Source: a virus. Taken from it: a DNA stretch of 64,000 nt. The stretch spans positions 64,001 through 128,000 of IMG/VR virus record IMGVR_UViG_3300036399_001951; one strand, given 5' to 3'. Both the position numbers and the translations under genes were made by a program. The notes below the pieces were generated by a model, which saw nothing but the letters and a program-made list of their open reading frames with translations, did not search any database and had not been told where the DNA came from. Below, piece after piece: positions 18,261 through 64,000 of the stretch. The stretch's first letter is position 1. Each line of letters begins with the position of its first letter.

Positions 18261-18429
18261 ATCTATTCTTGTATTTAGCTCGATTTATTTCTTCTCGTCT
18301 CTTAACTGACTTCTTTTTAAATGTTTTTCTCTCCTTAAGCTCTTTAATTGTGCTTAATTTATCAACCTTTTGTCGATATTCCTTTAGCGCATATTCAATT
18401 TTCTTATTACCAATTGGAATAACTATCAT
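18244..18429 (-). CDS. rpsU: Phage-encoded ribosomal protein bS21
   Basis: 61 aa, basic: IEYALKEYRQKV..IKELKERKTFKKKSVKRREE..AKY. Confidence 0.85.
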   Translation of the reverse strand: MIVIPIGNKKIEYALKEYRQKVDKLSTIKELKERKTFKKKSVKRREEINRAKYKNRYDKGI

Positions 18430-50620: not shown

Positions 50621-50830
50621 TTCTTTTTTAATTTTTATTTTATTTATTTTTCCATGTCCCAAATTTTGCTTATATTTATAGATTGCAGTGACCTGAAAAA
50701 TGGACACCCAACTGGAATCTAAAATAACACTCATAACCGCTCCGCTAAAATTCAGAAAAAAGTTTCCAAATAATTTTTTAGATTCCCAAATTCTTCTTAT
50801 ATTTACTATATAACTTAAAAACAAAAAGAA

Positions 50831-50974
50831 ATGAATTTTGGAGAAAAGATTTTTTTAGGGGTTTTACAAACAATTTCATGGTGTTTAGGAGCCACAGTAA
50901 TGATTGCGTTAAGTTACGCATTTTATCAAATTGCAACGGGTAATATACACGGAACGGCATCATTTGAATTTTAG
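50831..50974 (+). CDS. Small membrane protein (47 aa, missed by ORF track)
   Basis: MNFGEKIFLGVLQTISWCLGATVMIALSYAFYQIATG.. after an early promoter. Confidence 0.6.
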   Translation: MNFGEKIFLGVLQTISWCLGATVMIALSYAFYQIATGNIHGTASFEF

Positions 50975-51209
50975 GTTTTAGTTTATATTTTATTTAAAAT
51001 TTAGAAAGGGGCTCAAAAGGCCCCTTATTTTTTTAATCCTATTTTTAATAATAGTTTAGGATATCTAGTTAGGACTCCCACTCCCGGAGCGAGACTGTAT
51101 CCAAAGGATTCACATAGTGAGAGGCCCGGCTCCGATAATTATTATTTACGAAAGGTACCCAATTGAAAAAAAAGTATTATATTTATATAAGAATTTAAAA
51201 CATATAAAG

Positions 51210-51398
51210 ATGAAGAAAAGAATTTTAGATGGATTAGATGCGGGATTATTTATCGGAATGATAGTGTTCGTATTTTCCGGTATCATAATGTATTTTGGTA
51301 ATCCGATTGGAGATTACTTATTACCTAGAACCGCGATTGTAGTTGTGTTGATAAGTATTATCCGGGAAGGGTTAACCCTAAAGTCCAGCCGAACTTAG
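51210..51398 (+). CDS. Small 2-TM membrane protein
   Basis: Start moved to the ATG after the promoter. Confidence 0.6.
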   Translation: MKKRILDGLDAGLFIGMIVFVFSGIIMYFGNPIGDYLLPRTAIVVVLISIIREGLTLKSSRT

Positions 51399-51476
51399 CG
51401 GAACTTAACAGATTTTAACAATCAGAGCCAGATCTTAGTCTGGCTTTTTAGGTATATTAAAATAAATCAAAATAAA

Positions 51477-51659
51477 ATGAACATGAAAAAAGCGTATTTA
51501 TTAATGGTTCTTTTAGCATTTGCTGGAATGACCTCATGCGGAGAAGCAAAATCTGATTCTGACACAACTGGCGAAGCTACTATTGAAGCAACTGGGGAGT
51601 GTACCTCAGCTGCGGACTCTCTAGAAGTGGCTCCAACTGAAGAAGCTACCGCAGAATAA
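51477..51659 (+). CDS. Small lipoprotein
   Basis: Signal peptide with lipobox MTSC; acidic tail. Confidence 0.7.
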   Translation: MNMKKAYLLMVLLAFAGMTSCGEAKSDSDTTGEATIEATGECTSAADSLEVAPTEEATAE

Positions 51660-51842
51660 GATTTTTCTGCCTCCCAAAAGGGCCCTCAATAGAGGGCTTT
51701 TTTTTGGTCTGGGCCCGGGGCGATGGAGGTCCGTAAGAAACCGCTCCGTAGTAGGCCCGGAGCGAGGCAAGCCTCTAGCAAGTGGTTCCAGGCCTTGCTA
51801 TATTATTATCTAAAAGTTAGTATTATATCTAAAAACAAACCT

Positions 51843-52079
51843 ATGAGCAAATTAACCCGCCCCTTGCTATTGGAATTATATACAGATTGGACTAAACGTT
51901 GGGGCTTGAGCCGCAATAGCGAAGAGATACGGTTCGGACAGTGGGTTTGGATCCATTGGAATACTCAGTTAAGGGAACTAAAGGAGCGGTTCAAAGATTC
52001 CTCAAGCTTGCTAGATGGATTTTATGCTGAATCCCCAAAGACCGCATATGACCAGATTTACCGATTATTGGAATACTGA
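51843..52079 (+). CDS. Hypothetical protein (RFGQW motif)
   Basis: Start moved to MSKLTRP after the variant promoter TATATCTA. Confidence 0.55.
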   Translation: MSKLTRPLLLELYTDWTKRWGLSRNSEEIRFGQWVWIHWNTQLRELKERFKDSSSLLDGFYAESPKTAYDQIYRLLEY

Positions 52080-52191
52080 GCGATGGGATCTTGATCTTCC
52101 GGCTCTTAAAGAATGTTGAAAAAAAGTGATAAAAAGTTTTTCGGATTCCAAAATTCTTATTATATTTATATAAGAATTTAAAACAACAGAA

Positions 52192-52398
52192 ATGAAAAAG
52201 AAACTTGTAAATGGAATTGACCTTAAGACCTTAATAAATCATCATAGACCGTTGCACGATATGCGAGATGATGTTTTATTACCAATGATGTGGACCTCAG
52301 TACGAATGATGGAGGACCCTACAGTTCCAACTGCATTTAAACATCACGCCGTGGAAATGTATCAGGACGCGGAGCGAGAATTAGCGATACGTAACTAA
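52192..52398 (+). CDS. Hypothetical early protein
   Basis: After early promoter. Confidence 0.6.
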   Translation: MKKKLVNGIDLKTLINHHRPLHDMRDDVLLPMMWTSVRMMEDPTVPTAFKHHAVEMYQDAERELAIRN

Positions 52399-52410
52399 AT
52401 AAATTTAAAT

Positions 52411-52611
52411 ATGAATAATAATGAATTAATTCCTGATGAAGGAAGAGTTTGGAAAACCACTAGTGTAGCTATACAGAGCCGATGGTGGACCAAGGAATCA
52501 AGCGCATGGGATCGTGGAGGTAGCTTTAATATGGCATTATATCTCAGATTCTGTGAAGCACAAATGAGTAAGGACCATGAAGAGCAAGTTGAGAAAACAA
52601 ATCGAAAGTGA
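52411..52611 (+). CDS. Hypothetical protein
   Basis: ORF in operon. Confidence 0.5.
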   Translation: MNNNELIPDEGRVWKTTSVAIQSRWWTKESSAWDRGGSFNMALYLRFCEAQMSKDHEEQVEKTNRK

Positions 52612-52744
52612 CATGAGGGAAGACCGTAAAGCGGCTGGCTATTTTGACGGCCGCTTTCGGACCCAAGTGCAACCTAATAAGCGCAAAAAGGAGGAACTGA
52701 AGCGGACTCGCGGAGCGAAAAAAGACTGGGAAAACGAAACTTAG
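52577..52744 (+). CDS. Small basic protein, ArfA-like (55 aa, missed by ORF track)
   Basis: MKSKLRKQIESDMREDRKAAGYFDGRFRTQVQPNKRKKEELKRTRGAKKDWENET. Confidence 0.5.
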   Translation: MKSKLRKQIESDMREDRKAAGYFDGRFRTQVQPNKRKKEELKRTRGAKKDWENET

Positions 52745-52797
52745 GGCAGGTCTTGAAGTATATTAGAAATAAATAATAAAGAAAAAACACTACTAAA

Positions 52798-53124
52798 ATG
52801 GAGACACTAGAACCTATATTTAATCCGGGATTAATTGACTTTATTAACTCCGTAGATGGTGACCTGGGACGGGACCCAGATAGCTTAGAGCTTTTTCAAT
52901 GGATTGTTGAAGACCACTATGATGCGATCATGGAGGATATGTTAGATTATTTTCAGGACCGACCTGACATGCAAGCTATGCAAGCAGAGACCGCTCTTCT
53001 AGAATTAGGAGCGATGTTGAAATACTTTGAAGAGAAGGAGGAATATGAGAAATGTTCTAAATTGGTAAGTGTCCAAAAGGAAATGAAGACCAGTTTTATA
53101 AAGGCTGGCCTTGTAAACCCATGA
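52798..53124 (+). CDS. Hypothetical protein with UVR-like helix (YFEEKEEYEKC)
   Basis: TAAATA and GTATAT boxes upstream. Confidence 0.6.
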   Translation: METLEPIFNPGLIDFINSVDGDLGRDPDSLELFQWIVEDHYDAIMEDMLDYFQDRPDMQAMQAETALLELGAMLKYFEEKEEYEKCSKLVSVQKEMKTSFIKAGLVNP

Positions 53125-53403
53125 TTCTCAAGATTTATAGGATATAAAAGACCCGGTTTGCCGGGTTTTTTTATGACCTTTTGCCCGCCATCTTTGACAA
53201 GAAGAAGCCGCTTCTCGCTCGGGATCCTATTTGATCTGGACATCTCTTGGATTCAGTTAATCCGATCTCGCTCCCGAGCCAAGTGAGATCCAGAATCCAG
53301 AAGGCTGAGCAAATCCAGCTTCGCTCCGATAATAATTATCCCAAACATAGTATCTAATTGAAGAAAAAGTATTATATTTATATAAGAACTTAAAACAATA
53401 AAG

Positions 53404-53622
53404 ATGAAAAACAAAAAAGAATGGGATGGCTTTTGCCATCGATGCTCACAGGCCTCAATAGGCTACACTATGAGCTGGTTTAATCAGGAATTGATATGTC
53501 CGGATTGCGATAAGAAGGAACATCAACATCCCAAGATTGAAGAAGCTAAAGGAGCGGATTGGGAAGCTTGCAAGCAAGGTAACTTTAACTTTTCAGGAAT
53601 CGGTAAACCTCACGACCTATGA
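53404..53622 (+). CDS. Small Zn-finger protein
   Basis: CHRC..MSWFNQELICPDC. Confidence 0.7.
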   Translation: MKNKKEWDGFCHRCSQASIGYTMSWFNQELICPDCDKKEHQHPKIEEAKGADWEACKQGNFNFSGIGKPHDL

Positions 53623-53891
53623 TACGCCCAAGATCAGAAATGTCCCCGCAAATCGAGATTGATTTGAACGGACCTCAAGGAAATGCATTTTGCCTATTAG
53701 GTATGGTGCCTAACTTGTGTAGAAATTATGGAGTAGAAGTAGAAGGCCTGGACGGGATGCGGGATCTAGGATTCGTTACCGCAAAAAACAGTGCAGAATA
53801 CATACAGGACCAGATGAAAAGCGGAGATTATGAGAATCTCTTATCTGTATTCGATTCCTACTTCGGGGAATGGGTAATCCTATATAGATAG
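53619..53891 (+). CDS. Conserved phage hypothetical protein
   Basis: IDLNGPQGNAFCLLG..MKSGDYENLL. Confidence 0.7.
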   Translation: MIRPRSEMSPQIEIDLNGPQGNAFCLLGMVPNLCRNYGVEVEGLDGMRDLGFVTAKNSAEYIQDQMKSGDYENLLSVFDSYFGEWVILYR

Positions 53892-54075
53892 GATATTAAC
53901 TCCGTAGTTGATTGATTTGGAGGGGAACTTGTTTCCCCTTTTTCTTTTTCCCAAGCTTGGAGCCGCTTGCTAGAGGCTTGCCTCGCTCCGCAAAAATGTT
54001 TAAAATAAATTTTCAAAATTGTATTTTATATTTAAAAAATGATTATATTTATATTATAACTTAAAAACAAATAAT

Positions 54076-54414
54076 ATGAAAAGAGAAATTGAATTAGTAT
54101 TTAGCTATGATGCTATGGAAGAAACTTCTAATTTTTTTGAATTTCTTCAAGAAGTTATTGAAGAATTCAGAGTGGAAATAATTGGATTTTGGCCAATGAG
54201 CGCATCTGGATGTTGGCCCGAAATAACATTTAGAGGTGAAGATGATGATCTCTATAGATTATGCTTAAAATATCATGGTGATGATGAAGAAGTAGCTAGA
54301 GATTATTATGATGAATATTCAATAGAGAGTTCATCAAATGAAATTAATATTCTTAAAGATGATCGATGGCCATCAAAGAATAAATGGATTGATAAAGATG
54401 GCAACTTCATTTAA
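54076..54414 (+). CDS. Early acidic protein, paralog of 50159..50620
   Basis: SASGCWPEITFRG, KDDRW..KWIDKDG. Confidence 0.65.
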   Translation: MKREIELVFSYDAMEETSNFFEFLQEVIEEFRVEIIGFWPMSASGCWPEITFRGEDDDLYRLCLKYHGDDEEVARDYYDEYSIESSSNEINILKDDRWPSKNKWIDKDGNFI

Positions 54415-54585
54415 AAATTAAAATTTAAAATTAAAGAAATGAGCAATGAAAGTTGCTCATTTTTTTTTGATGTTTTGCTAGAGCCGCTTGCTAGGGGATC
54501 TCCTCGCTCCGAGATTAATTTATCCGCATTGGTAACGGATTCCCAAAAAAGTATTATATTTATATATAACTTAAAACAAAAGATC

Positions 54586-54741
54586 ATGTACAGTTTAGAT
54601 TGTAATTATTACGAGAAGCAATTTTCCTCCATTGACCAACTCATTGATGATGTGATTCAGAGCGGGATGGATCCGAACTATGAGATTACCTACAATGGCA
54701 AAGGCATTGGGGACCGGGCCATTGACCTAATCCAATTTTAG
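54586..54741 (+). CDS. Small hypothetical protein
   Basis: Start moved to MYSLDCNYY after the promoter. Confidence 0.6.
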   Translation: MYSLDCNYYEKQFSSIDQLIDDVIQSGMDPNYEITYNGKGIGDRAIDLIQF

Positions 54742-54989
54742 AAATTAAAAATTTAAGTGAGGAAACCGGCTAACTGCCGGTTTTTTAGGGTCCGAACTTT
54801 CGCAAACCTTGACCTTGGCAGAGAGTGGGCTCTCCCGCTCGGGAGCGAGTTAAGATCCAGAAATCAGTTGGATTCGGGATCGGCATTCGCTCCGAAAAAT
54901 GTTTGCAATTTTTTTACCCAAAATGATACCAATTGGGAAATATGTATTATATTTATATAAGAATTTAAACCAATTAAAAAACAAAGATT

Positions 54990-55667
54990 ATGAAAAATGT
55001 AGTTTTAAGCAGAACGATTACGAACAAAGATTCTAATTGTGTAGACCGTTACTTCCAGGACATCCAGGAATACGTTCCCCTAAGCGCTGATGAGGAAATC
55101 ATCATAGCACGTAAAGTTAAAGAGGGTGACCCGAGCGCACTGGAGCGATTAGTGAAGCACAATACTAGATTCGTTATTTCGGTAGCAAAGAAGTATCAGG
55201 GACGGGGCACACCCTTAAGTGACCTCATCAGCGAAGGTAATGTGGGTCTAATTGAAGCAGCAAAAAGATTTGACCCAGAACGAGGACATCGCTTTATCAC
55301 TTATGCAGTATGGTGGATTAAACAATCTATCTTAGCATCTATCGATAATGGTATTAAAAACTCTCACACTTCAATTGATGCTACAATTGGTGGCGGAGAG
55401 GATGAAGACTGGACAATTGCAAATCAATTGCGTTCAGATTCTCCCAGCACTGACCACATCGTTGAGCAAGATTCAATTAAAACTCAAGCCAATCGAATGC
55501 TATCACAATTAGCAGAACGTGAAAGAGAGATTATCAAATCACTATTTGGAATTGAGTGTAGAGCAATTGGAATTGATGAAGCTGGTAAGAAGTTTGGATT
55601 AACTCAACAGCGAATTGGACAAATCAGAGATAATGCTTTAAAGACCTTACAATCTAAGGTTAAGTAG
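54990..55667 (+). CDS. RpoD-like sigma-70 factor, short form lacking most of region 3
   Basis: LVKHNTRFVISVAKKYQG, DLISEGNVGL, RFITYAVWWIKQSI, LTQQRIGQI. Confidence 0.92.
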   Translation: MKNVVLSRTITNKDSNCVDRYFQDIQEYVPLSADEEIIIARKVKEGDPSALERLVKHNTRFVISVAKKYQGRGTPLSDLISEGNVGLIEAAKRFDPERGHRFITYAVWWIKQSILASIDNGIKNSHTSIDATIGGGEDEDWTIANQLRSDSPSTDHIVEQDSIKTQANRMLSQLAEREREIIKSLFGIECRAIGIDEAGKKFGLTQQRIGQIRDNALKTLQSKVK

Positions 55668-56056
55668 AACCAAGCAACTCCGTAGTAAGGCCCTCCTTGT
55701 GGGGGCCTTTTTTATTTGCCAGGTCTGGAGCGGTCCTCACCCGGACCTCATGCAGGTCATGGGGTAGGAGATCCGCTCCGTAGTGGCCGTGCCCGCCGAG
55801 GAGCGGCGTCGTCTTGGATGCTCTCGAAGCGGGGTCGCCCTGGAAAATGGGCAAAAAAATAATTCTAAGATTTTTATATTTAATAAATTATTATTACTAT
55901 AGAGCTCGAGAAATTCGGGCTCTTTTTTGCGCCCAAGCTTGGAGATGTACCTTCGTGAATCTTCCCGCTCTGGAAAAGGAGCGAGAAAAGATCCCTTGGA
56001 TTTTCAGGTATCTAGAATTATATGTATATTTACTTATACTTAATAACTTAAACAAC

Positions 56057-56281
56057 ATGGAAACAACAGTGTTTATTAAAATCTCAGGTCGCAAGGAGCC
56101 AGGGTATCCGACAACATCGCATCAGGTAACATTCGATGGGGACCTTACCGTATTTGAAAACCTAGTAGATGGGATTATAGATCAATTAGGTTATCGTAAA
56201 GCAGATGTATACATCGATAATCCTGAGGAATTTAACGAGGACGAGCAGGAGACCCTAGAAACTATGGGATTCATATTATGA
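56057..56281 (+). CDS. Hypothetical early protein
   Basis: Start moved to METTVF after the promoter. Confidence 0.6.
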   Translation: METTVFIKISGRKEPGYPTTSHQVTFDGDLTVFENLVDGIIDQLGYRKADVYIDNPEEFNEDEQETLETMGFIL

Positions 56282-56508
56282 ATTGGCTACCGGTATCTGA
56301 TCGACATCAACAGGGACAAACCTCAATTGGAAATGTCTGGATACGATTTACCCGGTCAGGAGCGATAGATGCATGGTACACCTGCTTTGGAGAGACACGG
56401 AAATGGTGCGCACAGGAAGGGGATACTGTGGAATTAGTAAGAGAGTTAATAGAAGAAGAATATCAACGGGTTCTGTTCTCCCGTCAGTTAGCTGAGAAAA
56501 ACAGATAA
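56278..56508 (+). CDS. Hypothetical protein
   Basis: ATGA overlap. Confidence 0.55.
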   Translation: MNWLPVSDRHQQGQTSIGNVWIRFTRSGAIDAWYTCFGETRKWCAQEGDTVELVRELIEEEYQRVLFSRQLAEKNR

Positions 56509-56529
56509 TCTTTGTTTTAAGTTCTGATC

Positions 56530-56560
56530 AAGCCGATTACTCCGTAGTCGGCTTTTTCTT
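56530..56560 (+). terminator. Terminator hairpin with conserved ACTCCGTAGT apex (similar at about 57985 and 59146)
   Basis: AAGCCGATTACTCCGTAGTCGGCTTTTT. Confidence 0.8.
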
Positions 56561-56687
56561 TGCCCAGTTCCCGGAGCCACTTAACAGGAGCTCGCTTCGC
56601 TCCGAGAAAAGCTCAATAATAAATCAGCAGGATTTTTAGTTGTGGTAAATTTTGATTATATTTACCTATAACTTAAAAGTAGAAATC

Positions 56688-56921
56688 ATGAATGTATTTG
56701 AATTTGTATTAAGCGGCAATGAAATGACAATTGCAGTAGTAGTAGGAGCAGCCAGCCGAGAGCGAGCCCTTGTTCTTCTAAAGGAGAACTATGAAAACTT
56801 TGAAGAAGAATATGATTACGATAATGAAGATGCGATAACATCATATCGAGATTCAATTATCAGTAACACTACATGTACTGCTGAATTTGTACGTGAAATC
56901 TTTTCAACCGAAGAACTATGA
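56688..56921 (+). CDS. Hypothetical early protein
   Basis: Start moved to MNVFEF. Confidence 0.55.
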   Translation: MNVFEFVLSGNEMTIAVVVGAASRERALVLLKENYENFEEEYDYDNEDAITSYRDSIISNTTCTAEFVREIFSTEEL

Positions 56922-57238
56922 GAGCCTATCATGCAACCCAGGCTAGTAATATACCTAGCATCCTAGAGGAAGGATTAAAATCTATGTGGGAAGGAGTATA
57001 TCTAACTGATTCAGAAGAGAGCGCATGCCGATGGATGGGATTCAGATTGGCTGCAGTAGGGGAACCAGTAATGGCCGTGATAGAGGTCGAGGTTAATGAA
57101 TACGATACAGTTGAAGGTATGGACCATTCCCCTCTAATGGAACAGATATTCGGAGTGGGAAAGAGTATCCTACATCCAAAGAGTATAAAACCTGAAAAAA
57201 TTATAAACGTTAATTACTATCGATTAAATCAAAAGTAA
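56918..57238 (+). CDS. ADP-ribosyltransferase-fold protein (Tpt1/KptA/DUF952-like)
   Basis: YHAT..NIPSILEEGL..GVYLT..A..VIEV..IKPEKI. Confidence 0.65.
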   Translation: MRAYHATQASNIPSILEEGLKSMWEGVYLTDSEESACRWMGFRLAAVGEPVMAVIEVEVNEYDTVEGMDHSPLMEQIFGVGKSILHPKSIKPEKIINVNYYRLNQK

Positions 57239-57480
57239 AGGTAATCTAATCTTCTCTAGAAGCCGGCCCAATAAAGGTCGGCTTTTTTAGGGTCCCAACT
57301 AAGAGGACCTCCGCTTCGGCAGGGAGCGGGCATTCCCGCTCCCGAGCGGATCTGGATACTTGACCACCGGGATTCCGGTATCCAAGCTCGCTCCGAAAAG
57401 ATTGATAAATTTTTTCAAAATAATTTTCAAGATTGAGGTATTCTTTGTATATTTACTATATAACTTAAAACAAAAGAGAA

Positions 57481-57729
57481 ATGGTATTACAACCAATTAA
57501 CCCGTCAGAATTGAGAGCGCGATTAAATCGTGGAACTGTTCAGTTTGCGTACAAGAAATTAGATGGCACTCTACGCACTGCCATTGGAACCACTTCACTG
57601 GAGAATGTGCCAGTTGACCATCAACCTAAAGGTGGAGAGAGTAGCCCTAAAGTTGTGGTTTACTTTGACCTTCAAAAAGGTGAATGGAGAAGTGTAAGTA
57701 TTAATCGTGAAATCTTTATTGCAGAATAA
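57481..57729 (+). CDS. WYL_2 / SH3-like phage protein
   Basis: FAYKKLDGTLRTAIGT..VYFDLQKGEWRS. Confidence 0.8.
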   Translation: MVLQPINPSELRARLNRGTVQFAYKKLDGTLRTAIGTTSLENVPVDHQPKGGESSPKVVVYFDLQKGEWRSVSINREIFIAE

Positions 57730-57730
57730 G

Positions 57731-57961
57731 ATGGGAACGAAAGAATTAAACATGGTGGAAGGGCCGGATGGCCTAACCACCGTATCCGGAAAATGCGTAT
57801 TTACAGGGGAAGAGTATTCCTGTCAAGTACCAACAGATGGAATTAAGATGTGGCTCAACGGGGAGCGGATTCAGCGTGCTCTACCGGGCGTGAGCCTAGA
57901 CGATAGGGAATTCCTAATAAGTGGAATTAGTCCTAACGGCTGGAAAAAGACCTTTGGTTAG
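57731..57961 (+). CDS. Hypothetical protein
   Basis: IQRALPGVSLDDREFLISGI motif typical of a small phage family. Confidence 0.6.
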   Translation: MGTKELNMVEGPDGLTTVSGKCVFTGEEYSCQVPTDGIKMWLNGERIQRALPGVSLDDREFLISGISPNGWKKTFG

Positions 57962-58144
57962 GTTGTTTTAAGTTAGATAAGATAAGGGTCGACTCCGTAG
58001 TCGGCCCTTTCTTTTTTCCCTAGCCCGGAGCGGATTACCAAGGGCCGGCCTCGCTCTGAGAAATGTGCAAAAATATATCTCATAGGATTTTCAAGTTAAT
58101 GATAGAATGCCTATATTTACTTATAACTTAAAACTTAAAACAAA

Positions 58145-58399
58145 ATGAAAAAAGAAAAATTAATTGAGAAACTAAATGAGTTTGAAAACGGATTCGAGCG
58201 GGATCCAGAAGTAATTGAACTTGTTTATAAGATAAAAGAGAAGTTTGATTCTCATTTTAATAAAACATTCTCGAGCAAAGAGATTGAATCTGATGAGTTT
58301 GATGAGATGAGCGAAGAGTATTATTATGCCCTGAAAGAGAATGATCCTGATGATGCATCGATTTTTCAGGTAATGTGGTTTGAAAATTGGTTAAAATAA
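58145..58399 (+). CDS. Hypothetical early protein
   Basis: After promoter. Confidence 0.6.
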   Translation: MKKEKLIEKLNEFENGFERDPEVIELVYKIKEKFDSHFNKTFSSKEIESDEFDEMSEEYYYALKENDPDDASIFQVMWFENWLK

Positions 58400-58404
58400 T
58401 AACT

Positions 58405-58614
58405 ATGGAAGCAAACTCAAAACAAGAATGGTGGGATCTAGTAAGAGCGGATCTCGCTAAGTGGAATAGAGAGAACCACCCAGAAGATCGCATGGGTATT
58501 CAAGACTGGATCGGCGAAGTTGGACCTAAGATTCATGGATGGATCGCGTTCAGAGACGAGTATGGAGATTGGGATGCCTCATTGAGCGGATTCCCAGACG
58601 ATGAAGATTATTAA
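58405..58614 (+). CDS. Hypothetical protein
   Basis: ORF from the ATG at 58405. Confidence 0.5.
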   Translation: MEANSKQEWWDLVRADLAKWNRENHPEDRMGIQDWIGEVGPKIHGWIAFRDEYGDWDASLSGFPDDEDY

Positions 58615-58721
58615 AGATTGTGGCACGTGTCTCTTGTAAAACTTTCAAAAAAGTTTCCAAAAAATTTTCAAGTATCAAAAATTCTTTGTATATTTACTTA
58701 TAACTTAAAAACAAAAAAGAA

Positions 58722-59120
58722 ATGAAAGCAGGTAAGTATTATGTTGGTGACCTATGTTATGTACTAGGTGATCGTTGGGACGAAGTTTGTGATCTTATTA
58801 TTAAGGATCATGTATGCTTAGATGGTGTGTTTGAATTAAAGGACGGAACCCAGTTTGCAATATATGGAACAGCTTATGGAGATGGATTCTATAGTGACCA
58901 ATATGCAAATGGATATCCAGTGGATTCAGGTTCAATCGGCTGTGTGTTAGTGGACTCCATAACTTCAGGTGAATTAGATGAATCCTTAGGAAATGTTATA
59001 GATTTCGATGATGATTTTACTACAAGTTCAGATAGTGGAATAATCTATATCGGAGAAATTGAAATAGATACTGAAGGGAGCGAAGGAATAGATGATGAAT
59101 CAATCAATGATATTTGGTAA
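58722..59120 (+). CDS. Conserved phage hypothetical protein
   Basis: GKYYVGDLCYV..TAYGDG..VDSGSIG. Confidence 0.7.
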   Translation: MKAGKYYVGDLCYVLGDRWDEVCDLIIKDHVCLDGVFELKDGTQFAIYGTAYGDGFYSDQYANGYPVDSGSIGCVLVDSITSGELDESLGNVIDFDDDFTTSSDSGIIYIGEIEIDTEGSEGIDDESINDIW

Positions 59121-59304
59121 GAAGTTGTTTTAAGTTAGGTAAAGAAAGGTCAACTCCGTAGTTGGCCTTTTCTTTTGCGGTATCCCCGGAGCGGGTAGCA
59201 TCCCTCCCGCCTCGCTCCGAGAAACGTACAAAAATATATTATCTAAAATTTTCAGGATTAAGGAATTCTTCTTATATTTACTTATAACTTAAAAACAAAA
59301 AGAA

Positions 59305-59670
59305 ATGAAAAATGTAACAGTATTAGCAATTGGAGTAGTTCAACCTGAAAACGGAAAAACTTGTTATGATTGGAATATGTATGATTCTGTGCCAGGAGTG
59401 ATCTCCTTGACCTCAAGTGGATTCTTAATGTATCATGCTAATGAAGATGATTTTACACCGGGCGATCAATTACAATTAATCGCTAATGATTCAAATAGAA
59501 AATTAAAAACGGCAACAATCGTTGAATCATGTAGCGCAAACCGAGAGGATGTCCTAGCAATGTTATTACGTAACCAATATGATTATTATCCAGCTAGAGC
59601 ATTTAAGAAAAAGAGATTCTCTCGTAAATTGAGTACATCATATTCAGTAAAAGGAATTTATATTAGTTAG
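59305..59670 (+). CDS. Hypothetical early protein
   Basis: After promoter. Confidence 0.6.
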   Translation: MKNVTVLAIGVVQPENGKTCYDWNMYDSVPGVISLTSSGFLMYHANEDDFTPGDQLQLIANDSNRKLKTATIVESCSANREDVLAMLLRNQYDYYPARAFKKKRFSRKLSTSYSVKGIYIS

Positions 59671-59870
59671 TTGTTTGTTTTGTTTAAGTTCTGATTAAGC
59701 CGGCACCAGCCGGCTTTTTCTTTTTAGGTGGCCATGCCCGCCCGGAGCCAGCTCTCCTCGGGCGCTCTCGAGGCGGGGCCGCTCCGGAAAATGTACAAAA
59801 ATATATTCTCTAAAATTTTCAAGATTAAAGTATTTTGCCTATATTTACTTATAACTTAAAACAAAACAAT

Positions 59871-60125
59871 ATGATTGATGTAATTTATGTGGCAGTTCTA
59901 GACTTTAATCTATGCAGCGTTAGCCTTTATGAGATTGAAAAGCAAGAAGCATTGGATATTGCAGATGACCTAGATATTGAGTTTGAGATTGACACCTTAG
60001 ATGAGATAGTATGTGAATATATGCATTCAAACCGCGGTCACCGAGCAAGCGAATGTCAGTATATGTTTTCAACTGAACCAATTCCTCTCCATATCCCATA
60101 TCAAATAGAATTAACTGAAGAATAA
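59871..60125 (+). CDS. Hypothetical early protein
   Basis: Start moved to MIDVIYV. Confidence 0.6.
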   Translation: MIDVIYVAVLDFNLCSVSLYEIEKQEALDIADDLDIEFEIDTLDEIVCEYMHSNRGHRASECQYMFSTEPIPLHIPYQIELTEE

Positions 60126-60298
60126 GTTTATTGATTATTACCGCAGGGGCCAGGAGACTGGCCTTTTTTAGGCATTCCTCTCGGAGCGGGTAGCCAGAAG
60201 AGAAACCCGCTCCGAATAATTGACAAAAAAATTTAAAATAAATTTTCAGGATTAAAGTATTTTGCCTATATTTACTATATAACTTAAAACAAAACAAG

Positions 60299-60658
60299 AT
60301 GAATATTGATGTTAACTTAATCTTACCTGAAGGTAAGGATTATCAGAGAGCCAAGGAGATGGACTTCTATAAACATGGCATGAGGAACTGGTTCTATGGG
60401 AACGGTGCGCCAATTCAAAGCCTAGCAGAGAAGCAAGCTAAACTTATTAAAGACCCTGTTAAATTAGTGCGCAGAGCCAAGGCAGTTGCAGCAGTGTGGG
60501 GCACTAGAGATTATCATGGGTATGCAAGTGGAGTACCGAAGGAGGAAAACGTTTGGAATCCCTTTGAGAATGCCCTACGTGCAATGGGATTTACTCATGA
60601 ACAGATCAATTCAATTAGCTCGCATAGAGAATCAGATGAAGTATTAAGAAGAGCTTAA
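60299..60658 (+). CDS. Hypothetical early protein
   Basis: After promoter. Confidence 0.6.
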   Translation: MNIDVNLILPEGKDYQRAKEMDFYKHGMRNWFYGNGAPIQSLAEKQAKLIKDPVKLVRRAKAVAAVWGTRDYHGYASGVPKEENVWNPFENALRAMGFTHEQINSISSHRESDEVLRRA

Positions 60659-60661
60659 GAC

Positions 60662-61138
60662 ATGGAACTTATTCTAAAAATCAAGGACAATCTGCATATC
60701 ATAGGGAATCGGATCTATAGCTACGAAACTGAGGTTGCCTCTATTGGCAAACACATTATCACTGCATACTCCACATACAGCAGAACTACAGGTAAACATG
60801 TAAACTTTATTTCACACCTATTAAACCTGCCAATCGTACACTCTACTCGTAAAAAGGCCGCCTATTCTAAATTGCAATATGGAGCCAGATGTAAGTATGA
60901 TGGCAGCTTATCAAGCAAGGCTAGCATCTCCGTAGTCAATGAACTCAAGTCTGGAGCGAATCTCATGACTGCTTGTGCAAGATGCTGGAACAGTATGGGT
61001 AATCGAGACAGGTCAACAGTAAGAGATTATTATGGATACACTGGCAAGGGAGCGGAGTTCGACGACCTGATTGTAATAGCCGGGCTCGGGATTATCATTA
61101 CAGATGAAGCAATTGATTTATCAAAAATATCAATTTAA
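60662..61138 (+). CDS. Hypothetical protein (IYSYETEVA..YSRTTGKH family)
   Basis: Common small-phage motif; C-terminal IDLSKISI. Confidence 0.6.
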   Translation: MELILKIKDNLHIIGNRIYSYETEVASIGKHIITAYSTYSRTTGKHVNFISHLLNLPIVHSTRKKAAYSKLQYGARCKYDGSLSSKASISVVNELKSGANLMTACARCWNSMGNRDRSTVRDYYGYTGKGAEFDDLIVIAGLGIIITDEAIDLSKISI

Positions 61139-61194
61139 ATTTTCAGGTCCCAAAGATTCTCTGTATATTTACTATATAACTTAAAATAAAAGTA

Positions 61195-62148
61195 ATGAAA
61201 GCAAAGCAAATAACTCTTAGTGCATCCTATATCAAATCACTCAGTGTGGAGAATAAGATAAATTTCTTATCGAATGATATTTGCCCTGATGAAATTATTG
61301 AACTCTTATCAAATGATCGTAGCCATAGAGTAAGAGCCGCAATTGCTGCACACACTAATTGTCCAATTGAACTATTAATTAAGTACTCGAATGATGCGCA
61401 CCCAGGGGTATTATGCGGTATTGCGAGTAATCCAAAAATTCCATATGATATCTTAGTTAAATTGTCAGATTCTGAGACAGATATAGTGGTAGTTGGCGTT
61501 GGTGAAAACCCTTCAATTGATTCTAAATTAAAGAATAAAATTCTAGAGCGATTGGCATTTGAATTTAATTGCTACTATAACGCGGTAGAGAGCCTAATCG
61601 CAAGTCCGGAAATAAAATCTTCTCTTATTAATAAATTATCTAAACACTCTAATTGGAATGTAAGGAGAGCGGTTGCAAGGAAGCCTTATCTCTCTAATGA
61701 TGTAGTGAATCGCTTAGCCGGTGACAACGACTGTGATGTACAAGATGCGATTCTGGAAAATGAATCATTAGAGATTACATCGAAAATGTTAAACATTCTT
61801 GTTAAGACGGGAAGTTGGCAGAATCGTCAAATCATTGCATCACGTATGGATTGTCCCCTAGATGTATTAATCTATATTGCAGAAACAGACGATGATACTG
61901 ATGTATTGAATTCTATGTTGAAGAATAGCAAGTGTCCGCTTGAAGTACTGGTGATTGTTGTTAACCGAGCCGATAGAGGAGAATCGTTAGGTACAGCAAG
62001 TGCAGCAGCACGAAGAAAGTTAACCCAAGCTATAAAATCAGGAGGACTTTTGGTTAAGGAACAAATTGAAGGAATGAAGACAATGTTGGAGCTTGGATTT
62101 AAATTATCAGCAGGTGACTCCGTAGTCTTAAATGAAATTAATATCTAA
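61195..62148 (+). CDS. LRV/HEAT-like repeat protein
   Basis: About 24-aa repeats VRAAIAAHTNCP, GIASNPKIP, VRRAVARKP. Confidence 0.75.
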   Translation: MKAKQITLSASYIKSLSVENKINFLSNDICPDEIIELLSNDRSHRVRAAIAAHTNCPIELLIKYSNDAHPGVLCGIASNPKIPYDILVKLSDSETDIVVVGVGENPSIDSKLKNKILERLAFEFNCYYNAVESLIASPEIKSSLINKLSKHSNWNVRRAVARKPYLSNDVVNRLAGDNDCDVQDAILENESLEITSKMLNILVKTGSWQNRQIIASRMDCPLDVLIYIAETDDDTDVLNSMLKNSKCPLEVLVIVVNRADRGESLGTASAAARRKLTQAIKSGGLLVKEQIEGMKTMLELGFKLSAGDSVVLNEINI

Positions 62149-62203
62149 AAGATTTTCAGGTCCCAACTAAACTTAGTATATTTACTATATAACTTGAATA
62201 AAC

Positions 62204-63010
62204 ATGTACTATCCAACACATCAAGAAATTTTAGACCTACCTTCGGTAAAGAGAAATATTGCAGAATTTAAAAAGCTTGGCTTAGACGTTGCTGTGATCT
62301 GTAACACCGGGACCAGAGCCTATAATAACGGAACCAGAAAGATCCAAATGCCAGCATGGGTGTGGAGAACTAAGAGTAAATATATGTATGAGGAGTTTGC
62401 AATTTACCCAGATCGCGGAACGGTCATAAGCGTTCCGAATGGATACACGATCAAACAAGTTGCACCCTTAAAAACCTTAGAAGATTGGGATAACTTATTT
62501 CAACTCCTGTTTGAACTTAAGTTCTCTCCTGATTTTTATAGAGCGGAGATATCTACTTCAGTTGTGGAATTAGATGAATTGGCTAGATCTAAAGATACTC
62601 GTATAAAAGGACGAGTTGCTAATAATAAGCATACCTCCCCAGATACCTTACGTAAACTTTGGAAATCTTCTAAAGCTGAGGTGGTGTTTGATGGTTTACT
62701 AACTAATCCTAATTTACCCTCAGATATCCTAGCCTTAATATATAAGAAGAGGGAATCTTTTGCTTCTAGATACCACACCAGTGATACATGGATTGAGGCC
62801 CGTATAATGGAGAACCCCAATACTCCAATTGAAATTCTATTGGGAGCAGATTGGAACGAGTATCCAACAGCCAGGGAAATCGTTGTTAACTCTGCAGATA
62901 AATTGACTTCAGAGCAGGATAGGAATAGGATACTTGGTCTAGTTACTATGAAAGACATGGGGATTCCAATTTCCAATGAACCAATTGATTTAAGTAAAAT
63001 AGAAATATAG
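62204..63010 (+). CDS. Protein with C-terminal LRV/HEAT-like repeats
   Basis: VANNKHTSP, LLTNPNLP, IMENPNTP; tail IDLSKIEI. Confidence 0.7.
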   Translation: MYYPTHQEILDLPSVKRNIAEFKKLGLDVAVICNTGTRAYNNGTRKIQMPAWVWRTKSKYMYEEFAIYPDRGTVISVPNGYTIKQVAPLKTLEDWDNLFQLLFELKFSPDFYRAEISTSVVELDELARSKDTRIKGRVANNKHTSPDTLRKLWKSSKAEVVFDGLLTNPNLPSDILALIYKKRESFASRYHTSDTWIEARIMENPNTPIEILLGADWNEYPTAREIVVNSADKLTSEQDRNRILGLVTMKDMGIPISNEPIDLSKIEI

Positions 63011-63189
63011 TGGAAGACAAGATAGATCGCATACTAAACATATTAAGCGAACGCAATAGATCCCTACAGGAAGAGCTTGATTCCTGTGGGGGGAGCGAGG
63101 ATGAGGACGCAAGCTTGATCTTCGAGGTAAACTCGGCTCAGATCGCATTGCTGGAAGAATTATATGAAGAGATAAAAAGTTTAAAATAA
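63010..63189 (+). CDS. Small coiled-coil protein (GTG start, missed by ORF track)
   Basis: VEDKIDRILNILSERNRSLQEEL..LEELYEEIKSLK. Confidence 0.45.
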   Translation: MEDKIDRILNILSERNRSLQEELDSCGGSEDEDASLIFEVNSAQIALLEELYEEIKSLK

Positions 63190-63240
63190 ATTTTCAGGTT
63201 TCAAAGATTCTTTGTATATTTACTTATAATTTAAATAGAG

Positions 63241-63474
63241 ATGAACAAAACTTTTTATTTATTAGTAACTGGACCCAAGGTATATTTACCAGGTGGGCGC
63301 AAACTTGAGAAGATAGAGATTACTCAAGAGGATATTGATGATACTCGTGAAGGGGACGAGAGTGACGAAGATGTACTCAATTATTTTATTGAAGATGAGA
63401 TATCTGCATGGGAACAGCATTGGTGTAAAGCAGTAGTAATTACAGAAGATGAATATAATAAATTAAAACAATAA
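63241..63474 (+). CDS. Hypothetical early protein
   Basis: After promoter. Confidence 0.6.
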   Translation: MNKTFYLLVTGPKVYLPGGRKLEKIEITQEDIDDTREGDESDEDVLNYFIEDEISAWEQHWCKAVVITEDEYNKLKQ

Positions 63475-63539
63475 TCTTAAAATTTTCAGGACCCAAGTAT
63501 TCTTTGTATATTTACTTATAACTTAAAAACAAAGGAAAA

Positions 63540-63758
63540 ATGAAATTATCTAAATGCTGTGATGCAAAAGTAAGAGTAGTAATGACGGACGATGAGGTCG
63601 GACATGGGATGTATGAAACGACTGAATGCTCTGATTGCGGAGAGCTAGAACCTGAGGTATATGAAGCTGCTTGTAAACATGAGAATACATTCGTTTCAAT
63701 ACGCCACACATCTGGAATTGAATTAGTGAAATGTAAAGATTGTGGTGCATCACTATAA
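63540..63758 (+). CDS. Small Zn-ribbon protein
   Basis: SKCC, CSDCG, CKH, CKDCG. Confidence 0.65.
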   Translation: MKLSKCCDAKVRVVMTDDEVGHGMYETTECSDCGELEPEVYEAACKHENTFVSIRHTSGIELVKCKDCGASL

Positions 63759-63774
63759 TTAAAAAGAGAGAGAT

Positions 63775-63990
63775 ATGGAATTATTATTTAAGACATCCGA
63801 GCAAGTAACATTAAACACCGTAACCATGCAGCACCCGACGGAAGGCGTGTTAGTGTACACGGAATGGGTTAATGACCAAGGCCGCATTATGGATTGTGAG
63901 ATTCGCAGCAAAGACGGCCACCTCATTGAGGAATCAGAGGACCACTGTTTAGTATCAGAAGTATACCAGTTTGTAGACAGCTTAAAATAA
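63775..63990 (+). CDS. Hypothetical protein
   Basis: ORF in operon. Confidence 0.55.
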   Translation: MELLFKTSEQVTLNTVTMQHPTEGVLVYTEWVNDQGRIMDCEIRSKDGHLIEESEDHCLVSEVYQFVDSLK

Positions 63991-64000
63991 GAGACAATGA

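What the first reader, a model, noticed from the sequence alone, without database searches (positions are those of the whole stretch)
56040..59720. Early cassettes are bracketed by inverted repeats: the 5' leader AACTTAAAACAA recurs as TTGTTTTAAGTT just after the stop codon
Seen: TAACTTAAAACAA at 57461 pairs perfectly (13 bp) with TTGTTTTAAGTTA at 57963. Near-perfect pairs occur at 56045/56511, 58701/59125 and 59285/59679. In each case the downstream copy sits between the last stop codon and the terminator, with no antisense TATATTTA next to it. Inference: either the finished mRNA closes into a 5'-3' panhandle that hides the A-rich initiation region (a built-in translation timer or stability device), or these are terminal inverted repeats of mobile gene cassettes.
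Basis: partly seen in the sequence, partly recalled or inferred. Interest (0 to 1): 0.8.

Follow-up and report, generated by a model that had tools for sequence, protein, structure and literature searches.

The report
Anti-leader element before phage early terminators
In a lake-water giant phage, about a quarter of the small early gene units carry, between the stop codon and the terminator, a short sequence that is the mirror complement of the start of the phage's early messenger RNAs, most likely so that the RNA can pair with itself.

Summary
AACTTAAAACAA follows the repeated promoter box TATATTTAC. Its reverse complement, TTGTTTTAAGTT, occurs only four times in the 137 kb contig (56512, 57963, 59125, 59680). 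Each copy lies 1-9 nt after a stop codon and 6-9 nt before a terminator hairpin, with no antisense promoter nearby.

The element recurs in related uncultured giant phages. 34 of 135 unique terminators carry it, although their hairpins differ. Across 13 genome groups, 40 of 152 pre-terminator windows hold the reverse complement of a leader 9-mer from the same genome, against 2.2 expected. Only 3 of 152 match in direct orientation. The enrichment also holds in two relatives whose leaders have a different sequence.

I read it as an RNA-level "anti-leader" that pairs with roughly nt 2-14 of the predicted mRNA. The closest precedent is the Bacillus hbs 5'/3'-UTR interaction. Whether its partner is the same mRNA's 5' end, the next unit's leader on read-through RNA, or any leader in trans is unresolved. 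No partner-specific covariation was found, and there is no experimental evidence.

The transposon-like reading is not supported. Units are gained and lost between relatives, but at direct repeats of the promoter and terminator modules, as with the T4-type promoter-terminator cassettes called PeSLs.

Verdict: a new variant of a known kind, of moderate to high interest.

The parts
56025..56055 (+). Unit 1: -7 box TATATTTA (56025-56032) and leader AACTTAAACAA (56045-56055). The -33-like TTTTCA lies at 56001-56006.
56057..56508 (+). Unit 1: two small ORFs (56057-56281 and 56278-56508), no Pfam family.
56512..56523 (+). Anti-leader TTGTTTTAAGTT, 3 nt after the stop codon and 6 nt before the hairpin.
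56530..56554 (+). Terminator hairpin with CTCCGTAG in its loop, followed by an interrupted T tract.
57448..57473 (+). Unit 3: -7 box (57448-57455), predicted start A at 57460, leader TAACTTAAAACAA (57461-57473).
   Evidence: The start site is inferred from the -12..-5 box position given in PMC9723704.
57481..57961 (+). Unit 3: ORFs 57481-57729 (WYL_2 domain, E 6e-18) and 57731-57961.
57963..57975 (+). Anti-leader TTGTTTTAAGTTA, 1 nt after the stop codon. It is a 13-nt perfect complement of 57461-57473, and also of 59852-59864.
57984..58009 (+). Terminator hairpin (11 pairs) with CTCCGTAG in its loop.
58689..58714 (+). Unit 5: -7 box (58689-58696) and leader TAACTTAAAAACAA (58701-58714).
58722..59120 (+). 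Unit 5: ORF of 132 aa, no Pfam family.
59125..59137 (+). Anti-leader TTGTTTTAAGTTA, 4 nt after the stop codon and 8 nt before the hairpin.
59145..59170 (+). Terminator hairpin with CTCCGTAG in its loop.
59273..59298 (+). Unit 6: -7 box (59273-59280) and leader TAACTTAAAAACAA (59285-59298).
59305..59670 (+). Unit 6: ORF of 121 aa, no Pfam family.
59671..59690 (+). Anti-leader, long form TTGTTTGTTTTGTTTAAGTT (core 59680-59690). It fits the next leader at 59852-59870 better than its own.
59697..59716 (+). Terminator hairpin.
59840..59864 (+). Next unit: -7 box and leader TAACTTAAAACAA. It is a perfect 13-nt partner of the anti-leaders at 57963 and 59125, and (as 59853-59865, AACTTAAAACAAA) of TTTGTTTTAAGTT at 56511-56523.
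56657..57283 (+). Contrast unit with the same promoter and leader type but no anti-leader before its terminator (57261-57283).

Best explanation
TTGTTTTAAGTT(A) is an 'anti-leader', a short 3'-UTR element that acts at the RNA level by pairing with the conserved 5'-terminal leader of the phage's early mRNAs.

What the sequence shows. The units are transcribed from a Bacteroidota-type promoter: TTTTC, 19 nt, then TATATTTA. With that box at -12..-5, the RNA is predicted to start at the A of ATAACTTAAAA(A)CAA. It runs about 20 nt to the AUG with no Shine-Dalgarno sequence. The anti-leader sits a modal 4 nt after the last stop codon and about 7 nt before the terminator hairpin. It is complementary to about nt 2-14 of that RNA.

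Most likely partner (inferred, not shown). I take it to be the 5' end of the same terminated mRNA. That gives a closed 5'-3' structure like the Bacillus subtilis hbs 5'/3'-UTR interaction. Such a structure would bury the 5' end, changing decay, and would partly occlude the A-rich initiation region.

A further inference. The element lies within the reach of a ribosome terminating 4 nt upstream. Translation would therefore open the duplex, and its cessation would let it close.

Confidence. I put about 0.7 on RNA-level pairing with some leader, and about 0.35 on the own-5'-end version specifically.
For: 1. Placement. The antisense motif occurs only at four post-stop, pre-terminator sites in 137 kb.

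2. Conservation. 44 of 160 terminators (34 of 135 unique contexts) in related IMG/VR loci carry it with up to 2 edits, although the hairpin sequences differ. The core TTTTAAGTT is nearly invariant. At the first A of AAG the only change is A to G, in 4 of 34, and this would keep a G-U pair. Two further instances differ in T/A-run length.

3. Orientation-specific enrichment. 40 of 152 pre-terminator windows in 13 genome groups hold the reverse complement of a 9-mer from a same-genome leader, against 2.2 expected. Direct-orientation matches number 3 of 152. Two groups are near-identical contigs; without one of them the count is 35 of 142.

4. Lineage-level covariation. G005 has leaders ATAACAAAAACAAAA and a terminator preceded by GTTGTTTTTTTGTTAT. 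There, 4 of 11 windows match its own leaders against 0-2 for other genomes' leaders (p 1.4e-5). In G003 it is 2 of 7.

5. Extent. The complementarity ends near the predicted transcription start. The next position is A in 24 of 34, pairing with nt +2. The start site comes from PMC9723704 passages.

6. Folding. Full transcripts fold into the panhandle in the MFE, with pair probabilities of at least 0.98, in 3 of 4 window units. Over the 71 units of 650 nt or less, the first 14 nt have a mean paired probability of 0.62 in 15 anti-leader units and 0.25 in 56 others (p 2e-5).

7. Precedents.
- The hbs mRNA has a 14-nt, mostly A/U complement lying just upstream of its terminator (PMC5737220 passages).
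- Complements as short as 8 nt act over hundreds of nt in vivo in B. subtilis (PMC12697547 abstract).
Against: - No partner-specific covariation. The anti-leader is no better matched to its own leader than to a random leader of the family (mean rank fraction 0.47, n=28). It is marginally better matched to the next leader (0.41, n=31).
- In all four window units the next leader fits at least as well as the own leader. Read-through folds pair the motif with the next leader in 3 of 4.
- The commonest leader in relatives has five A's against four T's in the motif, so a 1-nt bulge is the norm.
- Only about a quarter of terminators carry it.
- The duplex is weak, about -9 kcal/mol on average.
- It does not reach the AUG.
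- Anti-leader terminators have interrupted T tracts (leading T run 2.3 versus 3.4, p 8e-5). That hints at read-through and so favours the next-leader rival.
- All folding evidence is in silico.
- The metatranscriptome contigs gave no RNA ends.
- The relatives were chosen by a shared 22-nt promoter, so they are not independent.
Confidence: 0.35

Rival explanations
1. The partner is the NEXT unit's leader. On RNA that reads through the terminator, the anti-leader and the downstream leader form a long stem around the terminator-promoter spacer (about 150-200 nt). Only RNA started at the proximal promoter then has a free leader. This is the logic of T4 genes e, soc, 49 and I-TevI.
For: - The promoter lies between the two arms.
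- Read-through folds pair the motif with the next leader, with pair probabilities up to 1.0, in 3 of 4 cases.
- A family promoter follows within 74-281 nt in 31 of the 33 anti-leader terminators that have a downstream promoter in the locus.
- The next leader is marginally better matched than the own leader (rank 0.41 versus 0.47). At 59680 it is clearly better (-13.8 versus -8.3).
- Anti-leader terminators have interrupted T tracts.
- The T4 precedent is described in PMC3014915 passages.
Against: - The stem does not cover the start codon.
- In most copies the complementarity stops near the predicted start site, although read-through RNA would allow it to run on.
- In several relatives the next leader is of another type and does not pair, while the own leader does: L147 T10621 (= L032 710), -13.8 own versus -5.8 next; L024 4562, -12.9 versus -6.9.
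- Read-through was not shown.
Confidence: 0.25
2. The element acts in trans. Stable 3' fragments (anti-leader plus hairpin), or whole early mRNAs, pair with the leaders of many early mRNAs and damp or shut off early translation as early RNA accumulates.
For: - Each anti-leader is 12-13 nt perfectly complementary to several leaders in the window.
- There is no partner-specific covariation, but the motif follows the leader in two relatives with divergent leaders.
- Only a subset of units needs to carry it.
- The layout of seed, hairpin and U tail resembles 3'-UTR-derived small RNAs (recalled, not tested).
Against: A duplex of about -9 kcal/mol made of A/U pairs is weak for a trans interaction without a chaperone. 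No processed 3' fragment has been observed. The constant 4-nt distance from the stop codon has no role in this model.
Confidence: 0.1
3. DNA-level explanation. The inverted copy is part of a repeated terminator module that spreads and is homogenised by recombination, like the PeSL cassettes of T4-type phages. It would have no RNA-pairing function of its own.
For: - Between contigs L003 and L014 (87-99% identical in the long collinear blocks, most at 95% or more), unit indels and replacements break at the promoter/leader in 7 of 8 junction views and at the stop/anti-leader in 1 of 8.
- Identical 3' modules are repeated within L014.
- The motif co-occurs with CTCCGTAG in a composite module (21 of 34 versus 18 of 101).
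- PeSL precedent: PMC2839356 passages and PMC4122927 abstract.
Against: - The motif is conserved while the adjacent hairpins differ completely.
- The orientation is always inverted.
- The same architecture reappears with a different sequence where the leader differs (G005).
- Recombination explains the spread of a module, but not why the module contains the complement of the leader.
Confidence: 0.15
4. The repeats are terminal inverted repeats of transposon-like mobile gene cassettes.
For: Short (12-13 bp) inverted repeats flank small ORFs of unknown function. The unit content differs between relatives.
Against: - All units have one orientation: 143 promoter matches versus 0 on the other strand within 32 loci.
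- No transposase or integrase domain was found in the 10 ORFs.
- The flanks show no target duplication (read).
- Breakpoints lie in direct repeats with 36-72 nt overlaps.
- The left 'repeat' is the transcribed leader of a promoter.
Confidence: 0.03
5. The element is a leader-independent part of the terminator, for example a pause or stop-codon-rich spacer, and its complementarity to the leader is incidental.
For: It contains TAA and is often followed by TAG. It marks a distinct terminator class with interrupted T tracts.
Against: The pre-terminator sequence changes with the leader in G005 and G003. Direct-orientation matches are almost absent (3 of 152).
Confidence: 0.07

Closest known systems
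hbs mRNA 5'/3'-UTR long-range interaction, Bacillus subtilis (PMC5737220; passages read)
   Same: [quoted passage not shown] The pairing alters ribonuclease access, and ribosomes take part in the control.
   Different: That is a single cellular gene with a long, structured 5' UTR, and the pairing is not at the extreme 5' end. Here a 12-13-nt element is repeated in many units of a phage family, targets about nt 2-14 of a roughly 20-nt leader without a Shine-Dalgarno sequence, and is untested.
icaR mRNA 5'-3' UTR pairing, Staphylococcus aureus (PMC3868564; title and start of abstract in a search listing only)
   Same: A 3'-UTR segment pairs with the 5' UTR of the same mRNA and controls its translation.
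   Different: That case involves an anti-SD-like motif in a long 3' UTR, and the start codon region is the target (the motif details are recalled, not read). Here there is no SD and the 3' UTR is only about 50 nt.
T4 genes e, soc, 49 and I-TevI: upstream-started transcripts sequester the initiation region (PMC3014915; passages read)
   Same: The proximal promoter lies within or between the arms of an RNA helix. Only RNA started there is free of the inhibitory 5' arm.
   Different: In T4 the helix is local and covers the SD and/or the AUG. Here the arms are 150-200 nt apart, enclose a terminator, and do not reach the AUG.
PeSL promoter-terminator cassettes of T4-type phages (PMC2839356 passages; PMC4122927 abstract)
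   Same: Repeated composite terminator-plus-early-promoter modules flank small ORFs of unknown function and serve as recombination points for gain and loss of genes.
   Different: In what I read, PeSLs are not described as holding a complement of the mRNA leader. The phage group and promoter type also differ. Mini-circles were not tested here.
Panhandles and cyclisation sequences of RNA viruses (recalled, no call)
   Same: Terminal complementarity closes the RNA.
   Different: Those are genome-replication signals of RNA viruses. These are mRNAs of a DNA phage.

Membership tests
Bacterial 5'/3'-UTR long-range interaction (hbs / icaR type) | Complementary segments in the 5' UTR and the 3' UTR of one transcript | tested here: met
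   Four window units have 11-13 nt of complementarity. This assumes the predicted start and end of the RNA.
Bacterial 5'/3'-UTR long-range interaction (hbs / icaR type) | The 3' arm lies between the stop codon and the terminator hairpin | tested here: met
   Stop-to-motif distance is modally 4 nt (15 of 31). Motif-to-hairpin distance is 6-10 nt in 28 of 34.
Bacterial 5'/3'-UTR long-range interaction (hbs / icaR type) | The pairing forms in the RNA (probing, compensatory mutants) | not testable with these tools
   Only thermodynamic predictions are available.
Bacterial 5'/3'-UTR long-range interaction (hbs / icaR type) | The two arms co-vary in evolution | tested here: inconclusive
   The motif follows the leader in two relatives with divergent leaders (G005, G003). 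There is no own-partner covariation (rank 0.47).
PeSL-type regulatory cassettes | Repeated composite of terminator stem-loop and strong early promoter between small ORFs | tested here: met
   About 29-35 promoter copies in the contig, many preceded by terminators. 9 of 10 ORFs have no Pfam family.
PeSL-type regulatory cassettes | Indel breakpoints between close relatives fall in the repeats | tested here: met
   L003 versus L014: all 8 junction views fall at promoter/leader or stop/anti-leader. This was shown in relatives, not for the window itself.
PeSL-type regulatory cassettes | Sigma-70-type T4 early promoter in a T4-like myovirus | tested here: not met
   The promoter is TTTTC-19-TATATTTA, a Bacteroidota-like -7 box. 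There is no DNA match in the phage collection.
PeSL-type regulatory cassettes | Excised mini-circles | not testable with these tools
   This needs inverse PCR or long reads.
Transposable element with terminal inverted repeats | Target-site duplications next to the repeats | tested here: not met
   The flanks of the four pairs differ (read).
Transposable element with terminal inverted repeats | Transposase, or copies in either orientation and in unrelated sites | tested here: not met
   No such Pfam domain. Strand bias is 143 versus 0. The right arm always lies between stop codon and terminator.
T4 e/soc-type sequestration on upstream-started RNA | The proximal promoter lies between the arms | tested here: met
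   Anti-leader, terminator, promoter, then leader, spaced 150-200 nt.
T4 e/soc-type sequestration on upstream-started RNA | The helix covers the ribosome-binding site or start codon | tested here: not met
   The complement ends 8-11 nt before the AUG.

The most novel reading that the evidence does not exclude
This is a modular, ribosome-gated closed-loop mRNA system in phages of bacteria that lack Shine-Dalgarno pairing. The anti-leader is held 4 nt behind the stop codon. Every terminating ribosome therefore melts the 5'-3' duplex and frees the leader, which then lies next to it in space, for the next initiation. When translation stops, the RNA closes and its fate changes. Copied onto many early units, and tracking the leader sequence across phage lineages, this would act as a genome-wide post-transcriptional timer of the early phase. 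A related bold variant is that the 3' fragments act in trans as a global shut-off RNA for all early leaders.
Probability: 0.15. Interest if true: 0.8.

Novelty: new variant of a known kind. Interest (0 to 1): 0.6.

Why it matters
If the pairing is real, it would be the first case I know of in which a phage uses 5'-3' UTR complementarity as a repeated, exchangeable module on many early genes rather than on one gene. My literature searches for this were few. The paper on related lake phages has no occurrence of 'promoter', 'terminator', 'early' or 'intergenic' in its main text.

The hosts are probably Bacteroidota, whose translation start signals are poorly understood. The feature gives a concrete, cheap test: one leader, one 13-nt element and compensatory mutants, for how mRNA ends talk to each other in these bacteria.

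It also supplies ready-made regulatory parts (promoter, leader, anti-leader, terminator) for Flavobacterium genetics. Finally, the PeSL-like breakpoints extend the idea of regulatory cassettes as recombination points beyond T4-type phages.

Tried and rejected
- blastn of 55000-61000 against 50,697 deposited phages found no match. A protein search with the 740-aa ATPase gave only distant hits of under 60% identity. No cultured relative was found.
- A 14-mer scan with the CTCCGTAG-containing motif returned mostly single, probably chance, hits. I did not use it further.
- Metatranscriptome contigs of four lake runs cover only short pieces inside genes: 10 pieces of 151-354 nt. They show no ends, no strand and no read-through. 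One contig stops at 59137, the last base of an anti-leader, and one spans the promoter at 58689. I draw nothing from either.
- Partner-specific covariation (own versus next) gave no consistent winner.
- A genome-by-genome matrix of mean duplex energies was noisy and had one empty leader set. I replaced it with the 9-mer test.
- I suspected that the motif also follows a tRNA gene in L025 and L002. ARAGORN calls no tRNA in either locus, so I dropped the claim.
- The second rerun covered only units of 650 nt or less (71 units), and the planned shuffle control was left out.
I therefore could not check whether this contig is one of that paper's genomes.
- No protein structure or complex job was run, because none bears on the question.

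Full report
**What the window is.** The window is bases 64001-128000 of a 136,739-base IMG/VR virus record, estimated 54% complete. That makes it a giant phage of roughly 250 kb. DNA runs that hold it are lake-water metagenomes. It has no DNA match among 50,697 deposited phages.

The contig encodes a ribosomal protein bS21 homologue at window 18262-18417 on the minus strand, above Pfam's cut-off. This is the hallmark of the lake phages predicted to infect Bacteroidetes in PMC9723584 (passages read). Whether this contig is one of that paper's genomes could not be checked, because supplements are closed.

**The repeated expression unit.** From window 49385 to the contig end, about 29-35 copies of one promoter lie on the plus strand. 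Its form is ATTTTCAGG, 18-19 nt, TATATTTAC, (T)TATA, AACTTAAAA(A)CAA, a few A-rich bases, then ATG.

The box TATATTTA fits the Flavobacterium sigma-A -7 box TAnnTTTG in every position but the last. That paper places the box at -12 to -5 (PMC9723704 passages). By inference, the transcription start falls on the A of ATAAC, for example 57460.

The leader is about 20 nt long and A-rich, with no Shine-Dalgarno sequence, as expected for Bacteroidota. The ORFs are small, and 9 of 10 in 56057-59670 have no Pfam family. The exception, 57481-57729, is a WYL_2 domain. 'Early' is an inference from this layout.

**Check of the observation.** The pattern AACTTAAAACAA with up to one mismatch gives 13 matches against 1.12 expected. 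None of 100 shuffles reached 13. The plus-strand copies are the leaders.

The reverse complement occurs exactly at 56512, 57963 and 59125, and with one deleted base at 59680. It occurs nowhere else in the 137 kb contig. Each copy lies 1-9 nt after a stop codon and 6-9 nt before a terminator hairpin.

The repeat finder confirms 13-nt perfect arms at 57461-57473 / 57963-57975, or 17 nt at 94%. It also shows that each antisense copy is perfectly complementary to several leaders, not only its own. No antisense TATATTTA lies near any of them.

**The element is conserved in relatives.** A scan of IMG/VR with the 22-nt promoter found 32 loci. After orienting each locus, promoter matches were 143 on one strand and 0 on the other.

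Of 160 plus-strand terminators in these loci and the contig's early region, 44 carry TTGTTTTAAGTT with up to 2 edits within 40 nt upstream. Counted as unique contexts, that is 34 of 135. The hairpins that follow differ completely in sequence, so the motif is conserved in its own right.

The anatomy over 34 unique copies is:
- Stop-to-motif distance is modally 4 nt (15 of 31, range -3 to 48).
- Motif-to-hairpin distance is 6-10 nt in 28 of 34.
- The core TTTTAAGTT is nearly invariant. At the first A of AAG the only change is A to G, in 4 of 34, which would keep a G-U pair with the leader. Two further instances differ in T/A-run length.

These terminators form a class. Their T tracts are interrupted early (leading T run 2.3 versus 3.4, p 8e-5). 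They also co-occur with the 8-mer CTCCGTAG in or just after the hairpin (21 of 34 versus 18 of 101, p 4e-6).

**Is the complementarity to the leader selected?** I fetched the early regions of five more distant relatives. For 13 genome groups I asked how many 26-nt windows just before a terminator hairpin hold the reverse complement of a 9-mer from a leader of the same genome.

The answer is 40 of 152, against 2.2 expected from all 26-nt windows of the same loci. Same-strand matches are 3 of 152. Two groups are near-identical contigs; leaving one out gives 35 of 142.

The signal holds where the leader differs:
- G005 has leaders ATAACAAAAACAAAA. One terminator there is preceded by a stop codon, 2 nt, and GTTGTTTTTTTGTTAT.
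- In G005, 4 of 11 windows match its own leaders, against 0-2 for the leader sets of other genomes (p 1.4e-5).
- In G003, 2 of 7 windows match.

So the pre-terminator element follows the leader sequence in those two lineages. This speaks against a leader-independent terminator part and against chance.

**Which leader is the partner?** This I could not settle.

RNAduplex energies of each anti-leader with its own leader rank no better than with random leaders of the family (mean rank fraction 0.47, n=28). With the next leader the figure is 0.41 (n=31), not significant by my estimate.

Clear cases exist both ways:
- Own much better: L032 710 (the same site as L147 T10621), -13.8 versus -5.8; L024 4562, -12.9 versus -6.9.
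- Next much better: window 59680, -8.3 versus -13.8; L003 5535, -5.9 versus -11.8.

The commonest leader in relatives has five A's opposite four T's, so a one-base bulge is the norm.

In silico, full transcripts from the predicted start to the terminator close into the 5'-3' panhandle in the minimum-energy fold of 3 of 4 window units, with pair probabilities of at least 0.98. Read-through RNAs pair the same motif with the next leader in 3 of 4.

Over the 71 units of 650 nt or less that I folded, the first 14 nt are predicted paired with probability 0.62 in 15 anti-leader units and 0.25 in 56 others (p 2e-5). Leaders are thus otherwise kept open.

**Mechanism I commit to.** This is RNA-level pairing of the anti-leader with the 5'-terminal leader (about 0.7). 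The same mRNA's 5' end is the single most likely partner (about 0.35).

Reasons for preferring the own 5' end:
- The complement covers about nt 2-14 of the predicted RNA and, in most copies, stops near the predicted start. A 5'-end target explains this; a read-through stem does not.
- The geometry is that of the proven hbs interaction, a 14-nt A/U complement just upstream of the terminator (PMC5737220).
- Short complements act over hundreds of nt in vivo (PMC12697547 abstract).

The fixed 4-nt distance from the stop codon puts the element within reach of a terminating ribosome. I infer that translation opens the duplex. Whether closure stabilises the RNA or silences it is open. hbs suggests protection, while the 2025 preprint suggests decay and translational block.

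**Rivals.**
- Next-leader pairing on read-through RNA, the T4 gene e logic (PMC3014915): 0.25.
- Action in trans: 0.10.
- A DNA-level module with no RNA role: 0.15.
- A leader-independent terminator part: 0.07.
- Transposon-like inverted repeats: 0.03.

**The mobile-cassette idea.** Contigs L003 and L014 are 87-99% identical in their long collinear blocks, most of them at 95% or more. They differ by unit insertions, deletions and one replacement.

In the 8 junction views I printed, similarity breaks right after TATATTTACTTATAACTTAAAA, or begins at ATTTTCAGG or the box, in 7 views. In the remaining one it begins at the stop codon and anti-leader (L003:1771 / L014:5863). Overlaps of 36-72 nt at the junctions are the mark of homologous exchange between direct repeats.

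This is what PeSL cassettes do in T4-type phages (PMC2839356 passages; PMC4122927 abstract). Nothing points to transposition by the inverted copies.

**Limits.**
- No experiment and no RNA ends are available.
- Metatranscriptome contigs gave only gene-internal pieces.
- The first set of relatives was picked by the shared promoter and is not independent.
- My terminator finder is simple.
- Host assignment rests on the promoter form, the lack of SD and the bS21 gene.

**Verdict.** This is a real, conserved and statistically solid feature. It is a new variant of known kinds (5'/3'-UTR pairing; promoter-terminator cassettes), and its mechanism is still to be shown.

Noticed in passing
window 51744-64000 and on to the contig end (G000 115744-136563): The 8-mer CTCCGTAG occurs 16 times on the plus strand and never on the minus strand of the 137 kb contig (0.7 expected per strand). 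All copies lie in the early region. They sit in terminator loops (56540, 57993, 59154), just before or after terminators, and apparently also inside ORFs, to judge from their positions. In relatives it typically follows the T tract as TTTACTCCGTAGT. This is a strand-specific signal of unknown role, possibly an RNA cleavage or processing site.
   Followed up: partly
window 50739-59223, for example 56599-56608, 57390-57399, 58053-58062, 59214-59223: GCTCCG(A/C)(A/G)AA is the 3' arm of a GC-rich inverted repeat (GGAGCG...CGCTCC). In 10 promoters of the contig it sits at a nearly fixed distance upstream of the TATATTTA box: 58-59 nt in seven of them and 42-50 nt in three. It looks like a structured or protein-binding upstream element between terminator and promoter.
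   Followed up: partly
window 18262-18417 (-): A ribosomal protein bS21 homologue (Pfam PF01165, 28.9 bits, above the cut-off). It links this contig to the lake phages of Bacteroidetes described in PMC9723584.
   Followed up: partly
window 51178-54948: A second promoter sub-type, GTATTATATTTATATAAGAA(C/T)TTAAAAC, is used by the units upstream of the region studied. The two sub-types form separate blocks.
   Followed up: no
L003 1290-1800 versus window 57481-57729: The WYL_2-like small protein is the last gene of its unit in L003, directly followed by an anti-leader. In the window it is the first of two genes in its unit. So the same gene sits in differently built units.
   Followed up: no
relatives, 3' ends of the last ORFs (for example L004:1102, L021:4517, L022:6640); window 58590-58614: Many small early proteins end in acidic tails (D/E-rich, often ending in Y) just before the stop codon and anti-leader.
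   Followed up: no
window 58614-58689: The unit 58112-58614 has no terminator before the next promoter. One metatranscriptome contig (58628-58778) spans that promoter, which is compatible with read-through there or with DNA carry-over.
   Followed up: no
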